This document shows positions 1,928 through 10,096 of a stretch of DNA of 64,000 nt, piece by piece (position 1 is the stretch's first letter; the number at the start of each line of letters is the position of its first letter). The DNA lies in assembly GCF_003334765.1 (NCBI RefSeq), contig NZ_QOWT01000022.1. One strand, written 5' to 3'. The stretch is from Escherichia coli (GTDB taxonomy: Bacteria > Pseudomonadota > Gammaproteobacteria > Enterobacterales > Enterobacteriaceae). Below the pieces are notes generated by a model, which worked only from the letters and a program-made list of their open reading frames with translations, had not been told where the DNA came from and did no database searches. Made by a program: the position numbers and the translations under genes.

Positions 1928-2828
1928 CCGTTCCTCCGTTGGTTACGCTCCACTGCGTACATGATGCCGCCTGTGTTTTGTTCAGGACCACATCCGCCAG
2001 CGGCGAAGCCAGCTCCACACGCTGCACACCCTCAACATGCAGGGCGGCAAAGATGGCGCTACGGCGAATATCCCGGCCAAGACGCGTCTGACTGGCGATG
2101 TACTTCTGCAGACTGGCTTTTGCCGCTGCCATTACCGGCTCTGCTTCCGGTCCCGGATAGAGAAAAATGGTGGCTTCCACGCGGTACGGGATGATTTCTG
2201 CGCTGCGAACCGTCAGACGGTCAGCCACCGGGCGGACGTTCTCACTGTTCAGGGCTTTCTCCACCACATCCAGCAAGTCTTTTTCTGCTGTTCCATCGCC
2301 TTCGCGGCTAAGGACAGTCAGCACCACCTCTGCAGGTGCCGGACTGGTTGCACTGGCATCCGCCACCCGACCGTCGGCGCTTCGGGCATGAAATTCATAA
2401 GCTGCAGTTGGCCCCGCAACTGAAAGCCCTTCAAAGGCTGCAGGCACACGCAGGCGTAACGCTTCATCGCTTTCCATCACAGCTGCAACGGGCGGCACAG
2501 CGTCATCATCAGCAGGCGTCACCGTCAGGCGTTTCACGTTGTAGTTGGCAGCGAGCTGGTCAAGATCGCCGCCCATCGCATAAGCCACCATCACCGCCTG
2601 CGCGGCTTCGTTAATGCGCTGGCGCAGAAGCAACTCACGGTAAGCGTTCTCCTGCAACAATTTGGTGACGGGTTCAGATTCCAGTTCCAGCGTGCGGATC
2701 ACTGCTTCCTGCTCATCTTTCGGATGAAGCGCCACAAATTCTGCCTTGCGTTCGGCAAGCAGCGTCTCAAAGTCCGGCACATCCACAATCTGCGGCGCAG
2801 GCAACTGCGAAAGGTCAATCACTGCCAT
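1920..2828 (-). CDS. J: Baseplate assembly protein J (P2 gpJ-like).
   Basis: Starting from MAVIDLSQLPAPQIVDVPDFETLLAERKAEF, the protein is colinear with my recollection of P2 gpJ through ...HVEGVQRVELASPLADVVLN...GGTDE. The upstream ATG at 2867 was rejected as an extension. 302 aa. Confidence 0.9.
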   Translation of the reverse strand: MAVIDLSQLPAPQIVDVPDFETLLAERKAEFVALHPKDEQEAVIRTLELESEPVTKLLQENAYRELLLRQRINEAAQAVMVAYAMGGDLDQLAANYNVKRLTVTPADDDAVPPVAAVMESDEALRLRVPAAFEGLSVAGPTAAYEFHARSADGRVADASATSPAPAEVVLTVLSREGDGTAEKDLLDVVEKALNSENVRPVADRLTVRSAEIIPYRVEATIFLYPGPEAEPVMAAAKASLQKYIASQTRLGRDIRRSAIFAALHVEGVQRVELASPLADVVLNKTQAASCTQWSVTNGGTDE

Positions 2829-3174
2829 TCTCTGCTCCTGTTGATACGGAAAGGGAAACAGGCACACCGTTATTACGCCGCCCGGTCAGCTCCACCACCA
2901 TTGAACCGTCAAAATCGCTGTTGATGGTGATGGAATCCAGCGTCAGCCGTGGCTCCCAGCGACTCAGCGCCACATACACTGCCGACATGACCTGCAGGCG
3001 TAATGCCGGATTTTGTGGCTGGTCTATCAGTGCCGACAGCAGAGAACCATATTCCCGACGGGCAATACGGCTACCCTGCGGTGTCAGCAGAATGTCCCGC
3101 ACCGACTGGCGCAGATGGTCAATATCAGTAATGGCTTTGCCGCTGGTATTGTTCATCCCGCTATAAAGCGTCAT
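2815..3174 (-). CDS. W: Baseplate protein W (GPW/gp25 lysozyme-like family).
   Basis: 119-aa ORF with DIDHLRQSVRDILLTPQGSRIARREYGS, typical of gpW/gp25. Its start overlaps the V stop as ATGA. Confidence 0.85.
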   Translation of the reverse strand: MTLYSGMNNTSGKAITDIDHLRQSVRDILLTPQGSRIARREYGSLLSALIDQPQNPALRLQVMSAVYVALSRWEPRLTLDSITINSDFDGSMVVELTGRRNNGVPVSLSVSTGAENGSD

Positions 3175-3749
3175 ACCGGACCTCCGGTTGTGTCGCCGCC
3201 TTTCAGGACGCCAGTATGCTGATGCGCATCAACCACAATCCCGTTAGAGCTCATCGCTCCACCGCCCTGGGTAACGCCACCATTGATCACCACTTCGCTG
3301 TTAATACGCGTGCGGTCAGCCTCCAGCATAAACTCACTGGTTTTCAGGGTGATATTGTCAGCGGCCTCAATGACCATTGATTTGATGCCCCTGACATACC
3401 AGCGCCCGGTGGCGGGTTCGTATTCAAACCAGCCGCCGTCAGGATGTTCTGTCACGCAGGCGTCCGCCGACGTCGAAGGTGGCGCGAACTGATTCGAATA
3501 GATGGCGGGTAACGCAAAGGCGGTTTCCAGATTGCCGCCCAGACTCAGCAGCACCACCTGCTCACCTTCCGATGGTCGCCACCATGTGCGGGCATTACCC
3601 GCGCGCAGCGTCAGCCAGTTAATCCAGTTGGTTTCAAGGTCGCCCGTTTTCACCCGACAAAGCCAGTTTTCCCGGTCCACTTCGGTGACTACACCTATGC
3701 GGATCAGATTGGTGATAAGGCGCATGATTTCGGTTAGTTGTGCGTTCAT
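3171..3749 (-). CDS. V: Baseplate spike / assembly protein V (P2 gpV-like).
   Basis: From MNAQLTEIMRLITNLIRIGVVTEVD...WINWLTLRAGNARTWWRPSEGEQVVLLSLGG the protein is colinear with remembered P2 gpV. The ORF-track start at 3992 extends into AT-rich inserted DNA and was rejected. 192 aa. Confidence 0.9.
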   Translation of the reverse strand: MNAQLTEIMRLITNLIRIGVVTEVDRENWLCRVKTGDLETNWINWLTLRAGNARTWWRPSEGEQVVLLSLGGNLETAFALPAIYSNQFAPPSTSADACVTEHPDGGWFEYEPATGRWYVRGIKSMVIEAADNITLKTSEFMLEADRTRINSEVVINGGVTQGGGAMSSNGIVVDAHQHTGVLKGGDTTGGPV

Positions 3750-3852
3750 AGATATATGATGACAGCTGAAAACTTGTTTATAACTTCTTGCAAATTGTGG
3801 TATCGATGGTACAAATTGATAAAAGGATAAAAAACAACCAATAGGTGGATAA

Positions 3853-4659
3853 ATGAGTGTTATGAATCCAATAAGTTCTAATATATTTAATGCTGAATTT
3901 TTAAACACCCCGGCAGCGGCACTTGCCGCATGGATTTCCATTATTGGAGCTGTTATAACTTTGGTGACGATAGTTATAAGAGCACTATTCAAATATAGAA
4001 AATCTCATGATGTAATTTTGAAAAAATCAGGAATACCTGCGTTTATATTGAATTTTTTTCTTATACGAATATCATTAAAAAGGCTGCCTACTATCACATG
4101 GGCTGAAAAATCAATCACGGTTCTCTTTTCACTTCTTTTTTTGTGTGCAATTTATATTTTTGGTCCAGTTTTCATCCAAGCCATTAGAACCCCACCAAAT
4201 AGCACATTGCTTTATTGGATAAAATCCGGTGAATCATTTTATATGTCAAAAAAACTGGCGACTGCAGCTACAATATTAACCACTCCTGATTGGGAAATAT
4301 CAAAGGATGATTGCGAAGAGTCATCCTCTGCCAGTACAGAGAAGTACAAATCATTAACTATCGAACATAAAGAAATTCTTTGTAAACTACTAACCACTGA
4401 TGAAGGGAATGCTTACATTGATGAAGAAGTCAAGAATTTCGTTAAAGACAAATTCTTTATCTATTCCTTTGCCCCAACAACCATATTTATTCTATTATGG
4501 ATTTCTTTGGGTTTTATACTGACCATTCACTATTCTAAAAAAGTTAGGAAATATATTCTGACTGAACAAAAAAATGCAATTCATTGGGCATATGGTGAAT
4601 TCAAGACAGAAGGAATCTATTCAATATATCAAGAGTTAGAACGTAAGACTCACCATTAA
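3853..4659 (+). CDS. Hypothetical multi-pass membrane protein (268 aa), an AT-rich moron in the S/V (P2 orf30) locus.
   Basis: RBS AGGTGG lies 5 nt before the ATG. Hydrophobic segments are AALAAWISIIGAVITLVTIVI, ITVLFSLLFLCAIYIFGPVFIQAI and TTIFILLWISLGFILTI. It is on the opposite strand to the tail operon and its composition is clearly AT-rich compared with the flanks. I recognise no homology. Confidence 0.6.
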   Translation: MSVMNPISSNIFNAEFLNTPAAALAAWISIIGAVITLVTIVIRALFKYRKSHDVILKKSGIPAFILNFFLIRISLKRLPTITWAEKSITVLFSLLFLCAIYIFGPVFIQAIRTPPNSTLLYWIKSGESFYMSKKLATAATILTTPDWEISKDDCEESSSASTEKYKSLTIEHKEILCKLLTTDEGNAYIDEEVKNFVKDKFFIYSFAPTTIFILLWISLGFILTIHYSKKVRKYILTEQKNAIHWAYGEFKTEGIYSIYQELERKTHH

Positions 4660-5047
4660 GACCCAACAAACGACGCTCTGCGTAACGCACTTCCGGTCCT
4701 TTGCGGCTGACGCGATCGCGCAGGCCATAATGGTGAACGCGGGCAATGCGCTGCACCTTACCTTCAAACTGCACGCTGGCAGAATCGGCGCTGGCGGCAG
4801 TTTTCAGGTATTTGGTGGTGCGCAGCTTTGCAAACATCTGACGTTTGATGCGGCCTTTTTTACTGCGCGCCGTGACCTTGCGCGGTTCATAACTGCTGCC
4901 ATCTGGATTGCGCTGCATCCTGATATTCTGCTGCTGTGTCCGGCGCAGTTCCTGCGCCAGCTGGCGCATCATGCGGCTTCTTGCGACTGGTTCCAGATTC
5001 GCCAGTAAGGCACTAAGCCAGTCGTCCACCTTCTGCAGTTCAGCCAC
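4601..5047 (-). CDS. S: Tail completion / virion morphogenesis protein S (P2 gpS-like).
   Basis: 148 aa with ...NIRMQRNPDGSSYEPRKV...KKGRIKRQMFAKL...HHYGLRD..., colinear with remembered gpS. The last ~17 codons lie in the AT-rich insert and overlap the convergent ORF 3853-4659. Confidence 0.85.
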   Translation of the reverse strand: MAELQKVDDWLSALLANLEPVARSRMMRQLAQELRRTQQQNIRMQRNPDGSSYEPRKVTARSKKGRIKRQMFAKLRTTKYLKTAASADSASVQFEGKVQRIARVHHYGLRDRVSRKGPEVRYAERRLLGLNGESYVLTLDILNRFLLS

Positions 5048-5357
5048 GTTTCACCGTCCACATTTCTTCAGGTTCATCGGGTTCTGCTACCGCTTCAACG
5101 CTCGACACACTGCCGTCAGTGCTGACCAGCACACGTTCCGTCAGTTGCAGGTTAAGGCTGATATCACAGACATCGTTGCGCAGAATATCCACCTCAAAGG
5201 TAAATAGTTTTTCCCGTAACGCCGGGTTATTGATGGCATCGGGCTGGTTATCCCGCAGCCACAGCAAAACCGGGGCCATCAGCAGATTCTGGTCGCCGCT
5301 GAAATCCTCAATCACCACGTTCAGGGTGTAACCACGCAGCCCTACGAGTTCACTAAA
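5040..5357 (-). pseudogene. R: 5'-truncated tail completion gene R (P2 gpR-like). The N-terminal ~40 codons are deleted.
   Basis: Residues ...GYTLNVVIEDFSGDQNLLMAPVLLWLRDNQPD...ISLNLQLTERVLV match the central and C-terminal part of gpR. The upstream part of the 152-aa ORF (5358-5498) is merely the antisense of the Q fragment. Confidence 0.7.
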
Positions 5358-5906
5358 GGCAGTATCTTTCACCTGATGGAGCCGGACCTGAACCAGGAAA
5401 TTTACGGCCTGCCGGAATATCTGTCCGCCATTCCGTCCGCCTTGCTGAACGAGTCCGCTACGCTGTTCCGGCGTAAATACTACATCAATGGCAGTCATGC
5501 AGGGTTCATCATGTATATGACCGACGCCGCGCAGAACCAGGAGGACGTGAACAACATCCGCCAGGCCATGAAAAGCGCTAAAGGACCGGGCAACTTCCGC
5601 AACCTGTTTATGTATTCACCCAACGGCAAAAAGGACGGGATTCAGATAATCCCGCTGTCAGAGGTAGCGGCAAAGGATGAGTTTCTGAACATTAAGAACG
5701 TGAGCCGAGACGACATGATGGCTGCACACCGCGTTCCGCCGCAGATGATGGGGATTATGCCGAGTAATGTTGGGGGATTTGGGGATGTGGAAAAGGCGAG
5801 TAAGGTGTTTGTCCGTAACGAATTGATACCGCTGCAAAAGCGAATTAAAGAAATTAATGAATGGTTGAGTGATGAAATAATTTCTTTCCAACCATATGAA
5901 TTATAA
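5358..5906 (+). pseudogene. Q: C-terminal ~half of portal (capsid) protein Q (P2 gpQ-like). The N-terminal half is deleted.
   Basis: GSIFHLMEPDLNQEIYGLPEYLSAIPSALLNESATLFRRKYYINGSHAGFIMY...VFVRNELIPLQKRIKEINEWL is colinear with remembered P2 gpQ residues ~165-340. No Q N-terminus or P terminase gene is present upstream. Confidence 0.8.
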
Positions 5907-5907
5907 T

Positions 5908-5934
5908 AAAGTAGGGCAAATAATGCCCTACTTT
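5908..5934. terminator. Perfect 11-bp stem hairpin between the convergent 'Q and 285-aa genes.
   Basis: AAAGTAGGGCA-aataa-TGCCCTACTTT. It has A/T-rich flanks on both sides and overlaps the stop codon (5928-5930) of the minus-strand gene. Confidence 0.55.
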
Positions 5935-6785
5935 AACCAAATATTATAATCCAATCTTCCTACGTATCTTGAAAAAACAGCCAGAGCAATTGCTTGCCCT
6001 ACACTTGTTAATTCAATTCCTTGATAGTTGCTCTTTGAAAATTTTTCTAAAAATGCAGACACATGAGGGGCAACTAACTTAAGATTTGAAATATATGCAC
6101 TCTTATCTTTTATATCAGTCGGATATTTACTCATAAAATAGTCTTCAACATCCATCCCTAAAAAAGTATTCCATGAACAAGCCCCTGCATATTGAATGTG
6201 ATATATCTGGGCTTGAGACAAATTAAACCCATTAGTATACATTGATTCAAAGTTTCTAAAATTGTGCTCCAACAAATCCAATCGAACACCATTAACAGGG
6301 TCTTTGATCTCAACATTCTTGAGAAGAAAAACTATCGTTATAAGTGATATTTGTTGCTGTGTTAACTTGGGAACGACGGTAACTGCCTCCGTTAAAACTA
6401 TATCTCTAAAATCGTCATTGTTATTGGAGACTCGTTCAACTAACAACTGAGAAAGCACATCCATATTAGCTTTCTTTCCCTTCCTGGCTGATGACTTTAA
6501 TGCCTCAGTCAATGTAGCCTGAACGTCCGGATCGCAAAATTTATCAATAATCAATCTATCAACGTTTTTTGTTAAATCCGAAACGACACGCTCTTCAAAA
6601 TCTTTTGCATTCTCTTGAGCTGCAGCATAAGCAACATCTTTCAATTTTGGAAACTGATTTTCGAAGAGAATGTTGAATAGTTCTCTAACCTCGGAAAACG
6701 ACATCCCTGAAACATTTACATTATTTCCAGCTTGAATTGCATACGAATTATTACCTATTTGTTGCTTTTGCTTATCACTAAACAT
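5928..6785 (-). CDS. Hypothetical 285-aa protein (cargo locus between Q and cos), a candidate defence/Abi component.
   Basis: RBS GGAGGA lies 7 nt before the ATG at 6785 and 9 nt after the stop of the upstream 81-aa ORF. It is AT-rich. The N-terminus is KQQIGNNSYAIQAGNNVNVSG and the rest looks all-helical. I recognise no catalytic motif. Confidence 0.75.
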   Translation of the reverse strand: MFSDKQKQQIGNNSYAIQAGNNVNVSGMSFSEVRELFNILFENQFPKLKDVAYAAAQENAKDFEERVVSDLTKNVDRLIIDKFCDPDVQATLTEALKSSARKGKKANMDVLSQLLVERVSNNNDDFRDIVLTEAVTVVPKLTQQQISLITIVFLLKNVEIKDPVNGVRLDLLEHNFRNFESMYTNGFNLSQAQIYHIQYAGACSWNTFLGMDVEDYFMSKYPTDIKDKSAYISNLKLVAPHVSAFLEKFSKSNYQGIELTSVGQAIALAVFSRYVGRLDYNIWLK

Positions 6786-6794
6786 ATATCCTCC

Positions 6795-7040
6795 TTATTT
6801 TTTATCACCTGTATTTATACAATCAATTTTAATATCACCTCTAGCCTGGACAGCAGTTGAATTATCACCAACTGATTGGCTCATAGAATTATATTTATTT
6901 TTTGTAGTGATAAGTAATCCAGCTAAAGCGCTAACTGCAGCCAAAAATGCAACAATAGAATCAAAACCAGGATCCATATAAAGCCATAATCCTGCAATCG
7001 ATGCCAGCATACATGTAATGACTATTGCAAAAATTTTCAT
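6795..7040 (-). CDS. Small 2-TM membrane protein (81 aa), first gene of a two-gene cargo operon.
   Basis: RBS AGGAGA precedes the ATG at 7040. There are two hydrophobic helices (IFAIVITCMLASIAGLWLY and IVAFLAAVSALAGLLI). The polar tail SQSVGDNSTAVQARGDIKID resembles the N-terminus of the downstream protein. Confidence 0.65.
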   Translation of the reverse strand: MKIFAIVITCMLASIAGLWLYMDPGFDSIVAFLAAVSALAGLLITTKNKYNSMSQSVGDNSTAVQARGDIKIDCINTGDKK

Positions 7041-7345: not shown

Positions 7346-8347
7346 ATGGGTGGAGAGACTTCGGCTATACAACGAGTCGCGGGTAAGATTTCTGATGATA
7401 TTTTCTCAGTGTTCAAATGGGATCGTGCCGCTAGAGCGGACATGAATTGGGATTGTTGCCAAGAGGCTCATTCCAAGAAAACACATCCAAGCGATGTTGT
7501 ATTTTTCTACATAGATCCATATGAGGAGGAAATGGTCTATCTCAACACAGACCTCAAAAGCTATGCAGAAGGTACTATTGGGAAAAAAATAGTCGAGGGA
7601 GCTTTAACATCGCTTGCTTTAGCTACCGAGTGTGCAAATGTCAGTGAAGAATGGCGATTGAAATATGTTCATGATGATTCTTTAGGTTATAACGTAAGAG
7701 GGTTATTATTCTTATATAACCATGATAATTTATATGATAAAGACTTCTATGAGAATATTACAAAAAAATTAGATCACTCATCTATAAATTGCCCTCCAAA
7801 CATCAAACTACATTTGCTTGACCCTTATAAAATATCAGATTTGATAAACATATCTTCTGACATAACTAAGTTAATTGGTTCAGGCAAACTTCCTCAACCT
7901 GATAAGTTCACATATTATTATCCAGATCTTTCCCTAACAAGAATAAAGCACCCTATTAATCAGACAACACCTGCAACAATTGAATTATTAACATCACCAT
8001 ACATTATAATAAAGCATGAGGCTTTCAGTTGGCTCAGGGATAAAAACCCTGAGGGATATGTTGTTTATTACAATCAACCGGGGGATTCAGTAGACGAATT
8101 CGTTTACTTCTTTGATATGTTATCAACTTATCAGATATTAACCGAAGGTAAACCAATCGTATTACGCCATTGTCACATTCACCCAAATGAAAATGCCATT
8201 CATCATTTTGAAAGAGCGAAAAAGAAATACAGCACAGACTGGCTCTTAGGCGAGGATGAAAGACTTTTTCTTAAAATTGACTTCGACAAGACAGACAAAA
8301 TTGTTGTTGAATATAATCTTGAACAAATCGGCATGGAGCAACGATAA
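7346..8347 (+). CDS. Hypothetical 333-aa protein with an N-terminal PD-(D/E)xK nuclease-like motif, gene 1 of a 3-gene cargo operon.
   Basis: RBS AAGGAG. The N-terminus has an acidic helix (E4, D17-D18), then HPSD50VVFFY, then VYLNTD69-L-K71, which is the canonical restriction-endonuclease-fold spacing. The gene is AT-rich. I do not recognise the C-terminal ~220 aa. Confidence 0.7.
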   Translation: MGGETSAIQRVAGKISDDIFSVFKWDRAARADMNWDCCQEAHSKKTHPSDVVFFYIDPYEEEMVYLNTDLKSYAEGTIGKKIVEGALTSLALATECANVSEEWRLKYVHDDSLGYNVRGLLFLYNHDNLYDKDFYENITKKLDHSSINCPPNIKLHLLDPYKISDLINISSDITKLIGSGKLPQPDKFTYYYPDLSLTRIKHPINQTTPATIELLTSPYIIIKHEAFSWLRDKNPEGYVVYYNQPGDSVDEFVYFFDMLSTYQILTEGKPIVLRHCHIHPNENAIHHFERAKKKYSTDWLLGEDERLFLKIDFDKTDKIVVEYNLEQIGMEQR

Positions 8348-9426
8348 TGGCTAAAAAACTATATTTCGCAACTGATAAAAATATTTATGATGCATTACAT
8401 CATAAAAGGATAACCGCTGCAAAGTTGCATGAATTATTGTTGAATCGAGGTGTGTTTTTATCACCAGAACTCGACAAGGAAATACTAATCGAGGAAATAT
8501 CCAAACTTCCTCACGGATTTAATGAATTAGAACACATAAAAAAACTGGTCAAAACATATGACCCAAGGGAAAGCACTACTAGTGTGAGCTTCCAAACCTC
8601 AACAAATCAGGCCGAATTAAAAAGTGCTGCTGAAGCACTAAAAAAAACATGCTCCCCTAGTAAAGGTCAAAGCCTGAATATTGTAGCTAAAAAAGATGGC
8701 TCGCTTACAGTAGAATACAAATATGAAGAAATAGACCTGTCTAAAACTGCATTACGTCAGATCGACAAGCGGAATGTTATAATAGAACTTCGCCCTGGAG
8801 CTGACAAAGTTGAAGTACGTATGCCTCAAAACCCCGAGGCAAAAAAAGTTATTGAGAGCTTGCAAAACGAGCTATCTAAAATCAAGTCCGAACCTATCGA
8901 GCGCTTCGAAATATCATTACTAGCAATAACTGATCCTACATTGCGAAGTCAGTTTTTTCAGGAATTAATGAATGGTCTACGCGGTTATGAGACTGATGAC
9001 GTAACAAAAGTCGAATTAAATCGCAGTACTGATGCTAGTGAGGATGAAGACAAGGAAGAAACTATTGATACCGGATTTGTTAAGAAAGCCGTCCTTAATG
9101 GTGAAGGGGTAAATAGTTCAGCTATATTTTCTCAACTACATGAGAAAGGTTATTATATCGGGCGTATTGCATGGTCTTCAAAGCCGACAAGTGGAATTGG
9201 AGACAGAATCAACGTCGAAGCATTTTTCAAAGACTCAGAAAAATGCTGTGACTTTGCCTATCAAATTAAAGGTATAAACAATCAAAAAGAAGACGGTTTC
9301 AATGTAACCATTCGCGCGGCAACGGCACAAGAGAAAAAACATATTAGTGAATTAATTGAGTCCGCCGCTGAAAATGCCTATAATATAATAATAGGATCAG
9401 AGGTGAACGAAGATGAAAAAGGTTAA
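8347..9426 (+). CDS. Hypothetical 359-aa protein, gene 2 of the 3-gene cargo operon.
   Basis: The start overlaps the gene-1 stop (TAATG). It contains an acidic linker, DASEDEDKEE. I recognise no motif. Confidence 0.7.
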   Translation: MAKKLYFATDKNIYDALHHKRITAAKLHELLLNRGVFLSPELDKEILIEEISKLPHGFNELEHIKKLVKTYDPRESTTSVSFQTSTNQAELKSAAEALKKTCSPSKGQSLNIVAKKDGSLTVEYKYEEIDLSKTALRQIDKRNVIIELRPGADKVEVRMPQNPEAKKVIESLQNELSKIKSEPIERFEISLLAITDPTLRSQFFQELMNGLRGYETDDVTKVELNRSTDASEDEDKEETIDTGFVKKAVLNGEGVNSSAIFSQLHEKGYYIGRIAWSSKPTSGIGDRINVEAFFKDSEKCCDFAYQIKGINNQKEDGFNVTIRAATAQEKKHISELIESAAENAYNIIIGSEVNEDEKG

Positions 9427-10096
9427 ATGGCTTAAGTTAAACATACGGCTTGAGTTTGAAACAGCCGTTAGACGTCTTTCTCTTGATTCTTTTACAGAGG
9501 ATAAAGGGAAAGGGTTCATTTTTGATAAAATACGCCATGATTTTGCAAATGGTCGCTTTGTCGAGCGTATTGTTTATCATGATAAAATATTAAGCTTTGA
9601 CGGAAGCGAAACTACCGTTGAAAGAATCGAATATCGCACCACAAATTTTAGCGTGGCTTTAGACTCTCTTCCTGTAATGCAGATTACTAACCCACCCAGA
9701 ACTTTAAAGCCTTTTTCGCAGGCTTTGGTAAAAAATCTTGGCTTAGGTGTTAGTTTGGAAGAAATTGACATAAACCCTATAGACTGGCTTAATGAAATAT
9801 CTTCAAGTGTAAATATCAATTTAACACAACTTGATATTTCAAGGGTTAGAGTTTCTGATTACGCCACAGCTAAAATGCAAATAATTGGCAGCAATGATCT
9901 TAGGAAGTATTATAAAGAAGAATTAGAGGGTAAAAAAATAAGAATTGACAGGCTTGTTTGCTCTGTTAATTCATTAGAATATTCCGGTAAGCTCAAGATC
10001 ACCAATAGCGGCCTTGCTTATATTGATGTTAGAAATGAGAATGAGTTTACGAAAATCGTTTTTGATACGTTAAAAAAAGTCACCCTTCAATCATAG
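9413..10096 (+). CDS. Hypothetical 227-aa protein, gene 3 of the 3-gene cargo operon.
   Basis: The start lies 14 nt inside the end of gene 2. The sequence looks beta-rich. I recognise no motif. Confidence 0.65.
   Translation: MKKVKWLKLNIRLEFETAVRRLSLDSFTEDKGKGFIFDKIRHDFANGRFVERIVYHDKILSFDGSETTVERIEYRTTNFSVALDSLPVMQITNPPRTLKPFSQALVKNLGLGVSLEEIDINPIDWLNEISSSVNINLTQLDISRVRVSDYATAKMQIIGSNDLRKYYKEELEGKKIRIDRLVCSVNSLEYSGKLKITNSGLAYIDVRNENEFTKIVFDTLKKVTLQS

What the first reader, a model, noticed from the sequence alone, without database searches (positions are those of the whole stretch)
3750..4660. AT-rich moron in the S/V (P2 orf30) slot encoding a 268-aa multi-TM protein that convergently overlaps the 3' end of tail gene S
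Seen in sequence:
- About 900 bp of AT-rich DNA interrupts the otherwise GC-normal tail operon between V (start 3749) and S.
- It carries one plus-strand ORF (3853-4659, RBS AGGTGG) with at least three clear hydrophobic helices and a central soluble segment rich in D, E and S.
- Its last 59 nt overlap the last ~19 codons of S on the opposite strand, and the C-terminal ~17 residues of S are themselves encoded by the AT-rich DNA. The insertion junction therefore lies inside S.
- No obvious RBS remains upstream of V.

Established knowledge: P2 has a non-essential, AT-rich orf30 at this same position, so this is a recognised exchange point.

Inference: a membrane protein expressed from a prophage against the direction of the late operon is a typical superinfection-exclusion or defence candidate.
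Basis: partly seen in the sequence, partly recalled or inferred. Interest (0 to 1): 0.5.

Follow-up and report, generated by a model that had tools for sequence, protein, structure and literature searches.

The report
Membrane-protein cargo gene in a P2 prophage
This is a real, selectively maintained accessory gene for an inner-membrane protein of unknown function (Pfam DUF6216, also present in E. coli B/BL21), sitting in a known swap site between two tail-gene operons of a defective P2-like prophage; it is a reasonable but untested candidate for blocking other phages.

Summary
Window 3750-4660 is 32.8% GC against 53-56% flanks. It carries one 268-aa ORF (3853-4659, +) whose last 59 nt overlap the 3' end of tail gene S.

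The ORF is a genuine gene. It is a Pfam DUF6216 member, RefSeq already names it so, and dN/dS is 0.12-0.33.

It occupies the slot that holds orf30 in phage P2. That slot is a gap between the O...S and V...G late operons, not the inside of one operon.

About half of related E. coli prophages have this site empty and about 11% carry DUF6216. Others carry unrelated single genes, always AT-rich and always antisense to the tail genes.

Each cassette brings its own V promoter and its own S C-terminus. The promoter's Ogr box is centred 55.5-56.5 nt from the V ATG.

V lacks an RBS in every P2-like phage examined, so the insertion did not cause that.

The protein is predicted to have three transmembrane helices, N-terminus out and C-terminus in, with a roughly 90-aa periplasmic domain holding two invariant cysteines. 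It has no match to any known fold or defence family.

It stays intact in heavily decayed prophages. Distant relatives sit in moron or defence hotspots of other mobile elements.

Superinfection exclusion is the best guess but is unproven. It is a new member of a known kind, of moderate interest.

The parts
3750..4660 (.). AT-rich exchangeable cassette. It contains the V promoter region, the cargo gene and the 3' end of S.
   Evidence: GC is 32.8% against 53-56% flanks. Homology to other slot alleles ends at 3749-3751 and resumes at 4623-4698.
3853..4659 (+). DUF6216 family gene of 268 aa. E. coli B/BL21 carries it as WP_000115390.1; one source names a protein of the same 90%-identity cluster ybl42.
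   Evidence: Pfam PF19723 scores 45.6 bits against a cut-off of 27.3. RefSeq uses the same name. dN/dS is 0.12-0.33. The open frame is far longer than chance allows.
3843..3848 (+). Shine-Dalgarno sequence AGGTGG of the cargo gene.
   Evidence: Read directly from the sequence. A GGAGG or GGTGG is conserved at the same place in homologous loci.
3796..3813 (.). TGT-N12-ACA Ogr/activator box of late promoter P_V, centred 55.5 nt from the V ATG.
   Evidence: The geometry is the same in ten different cassettes and matches the annotated P2 site. The consensus comes from PMC3931495.
3788..3815 (+). Putative promoter of the cargo gene: TTGCAA (3788-3793), a 16-nt spacer, then TGgTACAAA (3807-3815). 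It overlaps the Ogr box.
   Evidence: TTCTTGCAA and GATGGTACAA are invariant in 9 loci. These include remnants that have lost V and in which the TGT half-site has decayed. The consensus scanner did not call it. This part is inferred.
3171..3749 (-). Baseplate spike gene V, the first gene of the V operon. It has no Shine-Dalgarno sequence.
   Evidence: Pfam Phage_base_V plus Apex.
4601..5047 (-). Tail completion gene S, the last gene of the O operon. Its last ~18 codons are specific to the cassette.
   Evidence: Pfam Phage_tail_S at 8.9e-40 covers residues 3-146. The C-terminal tails are compared.
4601..4659 (.). Convergent dual-coding overlap of 59 nt between the 3' ends of the cargo gene and S.
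   Evidence: The overlap is conserved at 47-83 nt in homologous loci and is 33 nt in a relative with 19% identity.
3913..3987 (+). Predicted transmembrane helix 1 (about residues 21-45).
   Evidence: Hydropathy peak of 2.58. The AF2 model has a helix at 20-58.
4108..4182 (+). Predicted transmembrane helix 2 (about residues 86-110).
   Evidence: Hydropathy peak of 2.55. The AF2 model has a helix at 83-112.
4183..4458 (+). Predicted periplasmic alpha/beta domain (residues 111-202). It holds the family's only invariant residues, Cys154 (4312-4314) and Cys177 (4381-4383).
   Evidence: Invariance across 40 diverse members. pLDDT is about 90 with four strands plus helices. The segment is acidic and is flanked by K/R-rich loops on the other side of the membrane.
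4459..4530 (+). Predicted transmembrane helix 3 (about residues 203-226).
   Evidence: Hydropathy peak of 2.07. It lies within the long AF2 helix 183-246.
4531..4656 (+). Conserved K/R-rich cytoplasmic tail (residues 227-268).
   Evidence: It contains 8 K/R. The motif YSKKVRKYILTEQK...GEF..EGIY.IYQEL is highly conserved.

Best explanation
Shown
- Window 3853-4659 is a real, single-gene accessory cassette (moron) of the uncharacterised DUF6216 family.
- It lies in the gap between the O...S and V...G late operons of a P2-like prophage. This is the position P2 fills with orf30.
- The cassette is bounded by the V start codon and by about codon 130 of S. It carries its own copy of the Ogr-dependent V promoter and its own S C-terminus.
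- It is swapped as a unit among Enterobacterales P2-like prophages.
- The protein is under purifying selection. It stays intact in prophage remnants that have lost the surrounding tail genes.

Inferred
- The protein is an inner-membrane protein with three TM helices, N-terminus in the periplasm and C-terminus in the cytoplasm. It exposes a roughly 90-aa, probably disulfide-bonded domain to the periplasm.
- It is transcribed in the lysogen from a promoter (TTGCAA / TGgTACAAA) that overlaps the Ogr box. Ogr binding, plus convergent read-through from S, would then silence it late in lytic growth.
- Its most likely job is to protect the lysogen at the envelope. This would be superinfection exclusion that blocks genome entry of incoming phages across the periplasm or inner membrane.
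- It is probably a distant homologue of P2 Orf30.

Identity and anatomy are about 0.9 certain. The exclusion function is about 0.35-0.4 certain.
For: Real gene
- Pfam DUF6216 scores above threshold.
- There are 32 full-length clusters at 50-99% identity in Escherichia, Salmonella, Klebsiella, Citrobacter and Serratia.
- dN/dS is 0.12-0.33.

Cassette and slot
- Related phages have V, 68 bp, then S with nothing between.
- Sampling 60 of 1047 E. coli records gave 31 empty sites, 7 with DUF6216 and 7 with other single ORFs. All sequenced cargos are 31-35% GC and antisense to V and S.
- The Ogr-box geometry is identical in ten cassettes.

Retention
- Six independent remnants have V reduced to a stub, S or R broken, or both absent. 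The DUF6216 ORF is full length in all of them.
- The window prophage itself has lost 7,058 bp of lysis and head genes.

Topology
-.

Promoter
- The -35-like and -10-like blocks are invariant even where V and the TGT half-site are gone.

Hotspot contexts of distant members
- Another P2-like V/S slot.
- A lambdoid Q-holin moron site.
- Next to a GAAD/GASH/DO-GTPase/GAP1 conflict system.
- Next to an Mrr-type nuclease.
- An island with a relaxase and SIR2.

Orf30 link
- Same slot and strand.
- Same order of secondary-structure elements in both AF2 models.
- Two invariant Cys in each family.
- Collinear hhalign hit at E=2.7e-4.

Literature
- Defective P2 elements keep defence genes intact (bioRxiv 10.64898/2026.02.27.708500).
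Against: - No paper reports a function.
- Expression in the lysogen is not shown.
- The promoter-like -10 element lacks the usual final T and was not called by the scanner.
- DNA at 33% GC in E. coli may be silenced by H-NS (general knowledge).
- No terminator was found.
- The Orf30 relationship is below significance with a narrow profile. It is only 42% probable by hhalign.
- One distant member sits among ordinary chromosomal genes.
- Morons of this design can be virulence factors rather than defences (neaT, PMC3573123).
Confidence: 0.4

Rival explanations
1. It is a lysogenic-conversion or fitness factor unrelated to phages. The membrane protein would alter the envelope, stress tolerance, host interaction, or immunity to a bacteriocin or contact-dependent toxin. 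That benefit to the host would explain why it is kept.
For: - The same evidence of selection and retention applies.
- It has a periplasm-facing domain and no enzymatic or nuclease signature.
- There is a precedent. neaT is an AT-rich single gene antisense to the tail genes in a P2-like prophage, and it promotes bacteraemia fitness (PMC3573123).
- One relative lies among housekeeping genes.
Against: - Several relatives sit directly beside recognised conflict or defence genes.
- Other P2 accessory loci are dominated by anti-phage functions (PMC9122126).
- There is no similarity to known immunity or virulence families.
Confidence: 0.25
2. It is an abortive-infection effector. On sensing infection, the membrane protein would permeabilise or depolarise the inner membrane and kill the cell before phage release.
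For: - It has three TM helices and acts as a single gene.
- Relatives occur in hotspot contexts.
- There is a weak, sub-threshold resemblance of TM1 to HP1-family holins (E=0.037, 14.5 bits against a cut-off of 28.8).
Against: - No recognisable sensor domain or partner gene is present.
- The conserved soluble domain faces the periplasm by the positive-inside rule. That suits sensing incoming particles more than sensing intracellular infection.
- The holin hit is below threshold and confined to a TM helix.
Confidence: 0.12
3. It serves the phage's own lytic cycle, for example as a modulator of lysis timing or tail assembly. Alternatively its transcription matters only as antisense regulation of S and V.
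For: - It sits between tail genes.
- It overlaps S convergently in all relatives.
- Its start lies 40 nt from the V activator box.
Against: - It is absent from about half of closely related prophages and from all 50,697 phage records.
- It is retained intact where lysis, head and tail genes are deleted or decayed, including in this window.
- Protein-level purifying selection argues against a purely RNA role.
- P2 Orf30 in the same slot is annotated as non-essential.
Confidence: 0.06

Closest known systems
Pfam PF19723 (DUF6216), uncharacterised bacterial membrane proteins
   Same: The whole protein scores above the gathering cut-off. All close homologues carry the same precomputed domain. RefSeq uses this name.
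   Different: Only profile positions 114-265 of 270 are matched, so the N-terminal third is subfamily-specific. The family has no known function, so membership says nothing about mechanism. It is small: 50 representatives at 50% identity among 1.84 billion proteins.
Phage P2 Orf30 (NP_046770.1), the non-essential gene between S and V
   Same: - Same slot, same orientation antisense to the late genes, and AT-rich at 34% GC.
- Similar length, 261 against 268 aa.
- Same predicted order of TM1, cytoplasmic helices, TM2, four strands, a helix with the first Cys, a helix with the second Cys, and a long TM3 helix.
- Two invariant cysteines.
- Collinear hhalign match at E=2.7e-4.
   Different: - Sequence similarity is not significant by BLASTP (E=0.042), by Pfam scan or by a narrow profile.
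- Orf30 has a longer cytoplasmic segment between TM1 and TM2.
- In P2 the gene does not overlap S, and a terminator lies between them.
P2 lysogenic-conversion genes old, tin and Z/fun, and the P2 tin-old hotspot of anti-phage systems (Rousset et al. 2022)
   Same: They are AT-rich, non-essential cargo at fixed variable positions of P2-like prophages and are exchanged rapidly. The orf30 locus is listed beside the TO and Z regions as a variable locus (PMC3091744).
   Different: It lies at a different locus and has no sequence relation to these genes. Anti-phage activity has been shown for them but not for this gene. The S/V slot was not analysed in PMC9122126.
Inner-membrane superinfection-exclusion proteins (T4 Imm, P22 SieA, HK97 gp15), recalled from general knowledge
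   Same: It works like these only by inference. It is a small phage-borne membrane protein acting as a single gene, with a periplasm-facing part positioned where incoming DNA must cross.
   Different: No sequence or fold similarity was detected. It is larger, with three TM helices and a structured two-Cys domain. No phenotype is known.
[quoted passage not shown]
   Same: It is an exceptionally AT-rich, single membrane-protein gene in a P2 moron slot, oriented against the flanking tail genes.
   Different: neaT is an acyltransferase (PF01757) at the G/FI (Z/fun) slot with a virulence phenotype. The present protein has no enzyme domain.

Membership tests
Pfam DUF6216 (PF19723) | Whole-protein HMM score at or above the curated gathering cut-off. 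| tested here: met
   The score is 45.6 bits against 27.3, E=7e-12. The match is partial: residues 72-237 against profile positions 114-265 of 270.
Pfam DUF6216 (PF19723) | Shared architecture across members: three TM helices and a central domain with two conserved cysteines. | tested here: met
   In 40 diverse members, C154 and C177 are the only invariant columns, and W147 and F129 are at least 90% conserved.
P2 Orf30 family | Significant sequence similarity to P2 Orf30. | tested here: inconclusive
   - BLASTP gives E=0.042.
- A narrow profile gives E=0.22.
- A broad profile gives E=2.7e-4 with probability 42%, collinear.
- HMM scores are 8-12 bits.
- Orf30 gives no self-hit in BFVD, so the fold search was uninformative.
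P2 Orf30 family | Same genomic slot and orientation, between S and V and antisense to the late genes. | tested here: met
P2 Orf30 family | Same predicted fold or order of secondary-structure elements. | tested here: met
   Both AF2 models show TM1, helices, TM2, four beta strands, two Cys-bearing helices and a long TM3 helix. No direct superposition could be run.
Moron (accessory gene unit inserted between conserved phage genes) | Absent from otherwise collinear relatives. | tested here: met
   Empty sites occur in phage 500465-1, in Klebsiella phages and in Fels-2. They also occur in 31 of 60 sampled E. coli records.
Moron (accessory gene unit inserted between conserved phage genes) | Base composition distinct from the phage backbone. 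| tested here: met
   32.8% GC against 53-56%.
Moron (accessory gene unit inserted between conserved phage genes) | Its own promoter and terminator. | tested here: inconclusive
   Conserved -35-like and extended -10-like blocks are present, but the consensus scan did not call them. No intrinsic terminator was found, and the gene ends inside S.
Known anti-phage defence or superinfection-exclusion families | Match to a curated defence or exclusion model or fold. | tested here: not met
Known anti-phage defence or superinfection-exclusion families | Expressed in the lysogen and reduces infection by other phages. | not testable with these tools
   This needs RNA-seq or 5'-RACE, plus plating and DNA-entry assays.
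Structural or assembly proteins of P2-like phages | Conserved in all functional relatives and lost together with the virion module. | tested here: not met
   It is absent from about half of relatives and from all phage records. It is kept intact when V, S and R decay.

The most novel reading that the evidence does not exclude
DUF6216 and P2 Orf30 would form one ancient family of single-protein, periplasm-sensing inner-membrane exclusion or defence determinants. The S/V gap would then be a third anti-phage hotspot of P2-like phages, so far overlooked. Its cargo would be switched off by the late activator Ogr, because every cassette places its promoter under the Ogr box of P_V.
Probability: 0.25. 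Interest if true: 0.55.

Novelty: new member of a known kind. Interest (0 to 1): 0.35.

Why it matters
The gene is present in E. coli B and BL21(DE3), and the exact protein is seen on at least 1000 public contigs, yet its function is unknown. If it excludes phages, it would add a single-gene membrane mechanism to the list of prophage-borne defences. It would also mark the S/V gap of P2-like phages as a further reservoir of such genes. The cassette design found here gives concrete handles for testing how these swap sites work and how cargo expression is tied to the lysogenic state. Those handles are the fixed Ogr-box geometry, the cassette-specific S tail and the antisense orientation. If it is not a defence gene, it is still a clear case of a prophage gene domesticated by the host.

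Tried and rejected
- PHROGs, PADLOC and NCBIfam scans of the protein gave nothing useful.
- tblastn of the protein, and of the distant relative P0040, against 50,697 phage records found no match.
- Foldseek against BFVD gave no hit with E<=0.001.
- A PDB sequence search with the family profile gave none.
- AFDB50 was not available.
- Searching BFVD with the Orf30 model returned no self-hit. The earlier failure to hit Orf30 there therefore says nothing.
- An Rfam scan of 3000-5600 gave nothing.
- The promoter and terminator scanner found no site upstream of the ORF and no terminator.
- An inverted-repeat search found no GC-rich hairpin after S.
- The weak Pfam hit to HP1-family holins was rejected as TM-composition noise, being below the cut-off.
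- An Ogr-activated rightward transcript starting at Met4 was considered and rejected, because Met4 is not conserved.
- Literature searches for DUF6216 and for the RefSeq accessions found no functional study.
- Nilsson et al. 2004 could not be read.
- The search for related loci with the diverse alignment failed, and the closer alignment returned only 5 loci.
Full report
**1. What is in the sequence**

The window from 1 to about 5500 is the tail-gene block of a P2-like prophage on the minus strand. It reads H', I (1322-1927), J (1920-2867), W (2815-3174), V (3171-3749), S (4601-5047) and R'.

Between V and S lies 911 bp at 32.8% GC. The flanks are 55.7% and 52.9% GC. This stretch holds one plus-strand ORF, 3853-4659 (268 aa), preceded by AGGTGG.

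A frame this long is not expected by chance in such AT-rich DNA. The probability is about 6e-10, and shuffles gave a mean longest frame of 68 codons. GC3 is 0.27, below GC1 and GC2 at 0.36, as expected for coding DNA.

The ORF's last 59 nt overlap the 3' end of S on the other strand. RefSeq annotates the same pair of overlapping genes in BL21(DE3).

**2. Identity of the gene**

- The protein matches Pfam DUF6216 above threshold.
- It matches no PHROG and no PADLOC model, and gives no informative NCBIfam match.
- RefSeq calls it 'DUF6216 family protein'.
- The DNA is present at 99-100% identity, with at least 80% coverage, in 111 of 5,426 complete E. coli genomes. These include E. coli B, BL21(DE3) and C41/C43.
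- The exact protein is on at least 1000 contigs. One source names a protein of the same 90%-identity cluster ybl42.
- Full-length homologues at 50-99% identity occur in Escherichia, Salmonella, Klebsiella, Citrobacter, Serratia, Scandinavium and Buttiauxella.
- The wider family is small, with 50 representatives among 1.84 billion proteins.
- Pairwise dN/dS across eight loci is 0.12-0.33, so the protein is under purifying selection.

**3. The slot**

In P2 the same interval holds Orf30. It is 261 aa, lies on the opposite strand, is annotated as non-essential and is 34% GC. A terminator of the O operon follows S, and the Ogr-dependent promoter P_V lies in front of V.

P2 has four late operons, and S ends ONMLKRS while V starts VWJIHG (PMC3931495). 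The cassette therefore sits between operons, not inside one.

The orf30 position is listed with the tin-old (TO) and Z/fun regions as a place where P2-like phages carry foreign genes (PMC3091744). Phage R18C has yet another ORF there (PMC6823313).

I queried E. coli genomes with V plus S from an empty-site phage and sampled the 1047 matching records evenly:

| State of the S/V slot | Records (of 60) |
|---|---|
| Empty | 31 |
| DUF6216 | 7 |
| Other single ORFs | 7 |
| Only V (12), only S (1) or a short stub (1) matched | 15 |

Seven cargo loci outside the DUF6216 family were fetched and examined: a 250-253-aa two-TM family (three loci), a 179-aa one-TM protein, a 145-aa multi-TM protein, a 176-aa soluble protein identical to the phage Cartapus ORF, and a DUF2971 protein. 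All are single genes at 31-35% GC, on the strand opposite V and S.

**4. Cassette boundaries and built-in regulatory parts**

Homology between the window and nine other alleles ends at 3749-3751, which is the V ATG. It resumes at 4623-4698 inside S.

The last ~18 residues of S differ between cassettes but keep the same pattern, LLG.N followed by an amphipathic helix. They still fit the Pfam S profile to its end. DUF6216 cassettes share their own S tail...LTLDIL(N/H)R(F/Y)LLS.

Upstream of V the sequence is cassette-specific. Yet all ten cassettes examined have a TGT-N12-ACA box centred 55.5-56.5 nt from the V ATG. In the window it is at 3796-3813, and the annotated P2 site has the same centre.

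No P2-like V gene examined has a Shine-Dalgarno sequence. The P2 record puts the V transcription start on the first base of the gene. The missing RBS is therefore ancestral and probably reflects a leaderless or near-leaderless message. It is not damage from the insertion.

**5. A likely promoter for the cargo**

I aligned the V-to-cargo intergenic region of nine DUF6216 loci. The ~103-nt spacing is conserved, and the blocks TTCTTGCAA and GATGGTACAA are invariant. The Shine-Dalgarno sequence is also conserved.

These blocks read as a -35 element TTGCAA (3788-3793), a 16-nt spacer and an extended -10 element TGgTACAAA (3807-3815). They overlap the right half of the Ogr box.

In three remnants that have lost V (L008, L013, L014) the left TGT half-site has mutated, while these blocks are unchanged. 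That argues they serve the cargo gene.

This is an inference. The -10 element lacks the usual final T and the scanner did not report it.

If it is correct, Ogr binding late in infection would occlude the cargo promoter. No terminator was found after S, so late transcripts from P_O would also run antisense through the cargo gene. Both effects would confine expression to the lysogenic state.

**6. The protein**

Hydropathy gives three TM helices, at about 21-45, 86-110 and 203-226. Charge distribution is as follows:

| Segment | K/R | D/E |
|---|---|---|
| N-terminal 20 residues | 0 | 1 |
| Loop 46-86 | 9 | 2 |
| Central 111-202 | 12 | 16 |
| C-terminal tail 227-268 | 8 | 5 |

By the positive-inside rule the topology is N-out and C-in, with residues 111-202 in the periplasm.

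Across 40 members down to 14% identity, the only invariant residues are Cys154 and Cys177. Trp147 and Phe129 are at least 90% conserved. This fits a periplasmic disulfide.

AlphaFold2 gives mean pLDDT 76.9, with about 90 in the central domain. The domain has a four-stranded sheet and helices that lead into one long helix forming TM3.

**7. Relation to P2 Orf30**

Sequence evidence is weak. BLASTP gives E=0.042 and a narrow profile is not significant. A broad profile gives hhalign E=2.7e-4 with 42% probability, collinear over the two-Cys motif and TM3. Local HMM scores are low.

Other evidence points towards a relationship:
- Orf30 shares the slot, the strand, the length and the AT-richness.
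- It has two invariant cysteines, in DC... and ...(A/L)C.KLL motifs.
- Its AF2 model has the same order of secondary-structure elements.
- A DUF6216 member only 19% identical to the window protein (Tatumella) also occupies the V/S slot and overlaps S.

I consider remote homology likely, at about 0.6, but not demonstrated.

**8. Evidence bearing on function**

*(a) Independence from virion function.* The gene is absent from half of related prophages and from all 50,697 phage records.

*(b) Retention.* In six independent loci the P2 late region has decayed, yet the DUF6216 ORF is intact:
- Klebsiella aerogenes: V cut to 23 codons by an IS, S broken, R in fragments.
- Serratia rubidaea: V reduced to 80 codons, head genes in fragments.
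- Citrobacter youngae: S frameshifted.
- Scandinavium: only CI, an ATPase gene and this gene are left.
- An Enterobacteriaceae MAG and Citrobacter sedlakii: no V or S at all.

The window's own prophage lacks 7,058 bp, from the 5' end of R to the 5' part of Q. It is 100% identical to an intact relative up to the 8-bp microhomology at 5325-5332. This matches the reported tendency of defective P2 elements to keep defence cargo intact.

*(c) Contexts of distant members*:
- Between antiterminator Q and the holin in a lambdoid prophage.
- Just upstream of a GAAD/GASH/DO-GTPase/GAP1 system in an AlpA/CbtA island.
- Beside an Mrr-type nuclease.
- In an island with a relaxase and a SIR2 gene.
- In one ordinary chromosomal islet.

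No partner gene is conserved, so the protein acts alone.

**9. Interpretation**

The best reading is a lysogen-expressed inner-membrane protein whose periplasmic domain interferes with incoming phages, that is, superinfection exclusion. I give this about 0.35-0.4.

A non-phage fitness or immunity role gets about 0.25. It is kept alive by the neaT precedent (PMC3573123).

An abortive-infection membrane effector gets about 0.12. A role in the phage's own lytic cycle or a purely antisense role gets about 0.06. These are less likely for the reasons given under the rival explanations.

**10. Novelty**

The gene is already annotated and the slot is already known to be variable. This is a new member of a known kind.

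The points that go beyond the annotation are:
- the exact cassette limits;
- the cassette-borne P_V promoter with fixed geometry;
- the conserved dual-coding overlap with S;
- the selective retention in decayed prophages;
- the likely link between DUF6216 and P2 Orf30.

Interest is moderate. The gene sits in the most widely used E. coli expression strain, so testing it would be easy.

Noticed in passing
window 5325-5332 (junction); R' 5040-5498 (-), Q' 5376-5906 (+): The prophage is a deletion derivative. The window is 100% identical to an intact relative up to 5332, then jumps 7,058 bp across an 8-bp microhomology. The deletion removes the 5' end of R, lysB/C, K, Y, X, L, M, N, O, P and the 5' part of Q. 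The prophage cannot make heads or lyse.
   Followed up: yes
window 7346-8347, 8347-9426, 9413-10096 (+): Three overlapping ORFs in the P2 tin-old (TO) hotspot match PADLOC models Hp1, Hp2 and Hp3 end to end, with E from 1e-157 to 1e-248. This looks like the three-gene system of unknown mechanism that Rousset et al. 2022 reported to protect against P1 (PMC9122126). The link between the PADLOC models and that system is my inference.
   Followed up: partly
window 5928-6785 (-) and 6795-7040 (-): Two more AT-rich ORFs lie between Q' and the three-gene system. One is a 285-aa protein that RefSeq calls LPO_1073/Vpar_1526 family. The other is an 81-aa protein with hydrophobic stretches. Neither has a PADLOC hit or a significant Pfam hit.
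   Followed up: partly
window 3750-3813 and the same region of L002, L003, L016, L023, L027-L030, L033: Every S/V cassette, empty or loaded, keeps a TGT-N12-ACA box centred 55.5-56.5 nt from the V ATG, although the DNA between is unrelated. No V gene has a Shine-Dalgarno sequence. The P2 record places the transcription start on V's first base, which suggests a leaderless V message.
   Followed up: partly
L027, L028, L032 (772-1533 region); L029; L030; L033: Other cargo families occupy the same slot in E. coli prophages. They are a 250-253-aa two-TM family (48-77% identical to one another), a 179-aa one-TM protein, a 145-aa multi-TM protein and a DUF2971 protein. All are uncharacterised, AT-rich and antisense to the tail genes.
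   Followed up: partly
L011 (NZ_CP148585.1, 55,571 bp): This record is labelled a plasmid, but it carries an intact P2-like prophage followed by ordinary chromosomal genes (rcdA, ybjJ, ybjI, mdfA, ybjG). It is probably a chromosomal segment that was mis-assembled or circularised.
   Followed up: no
L025 and L026, 5001-10741: A 246-aa DUF6216 relative lies directly upstream of a GAAD/GASH/DO-GTPase/GAP1 gene set, in an island with AlpA, CbtA and DUF932. Whether the two are functionally linked is unknown.
   Followed up: no
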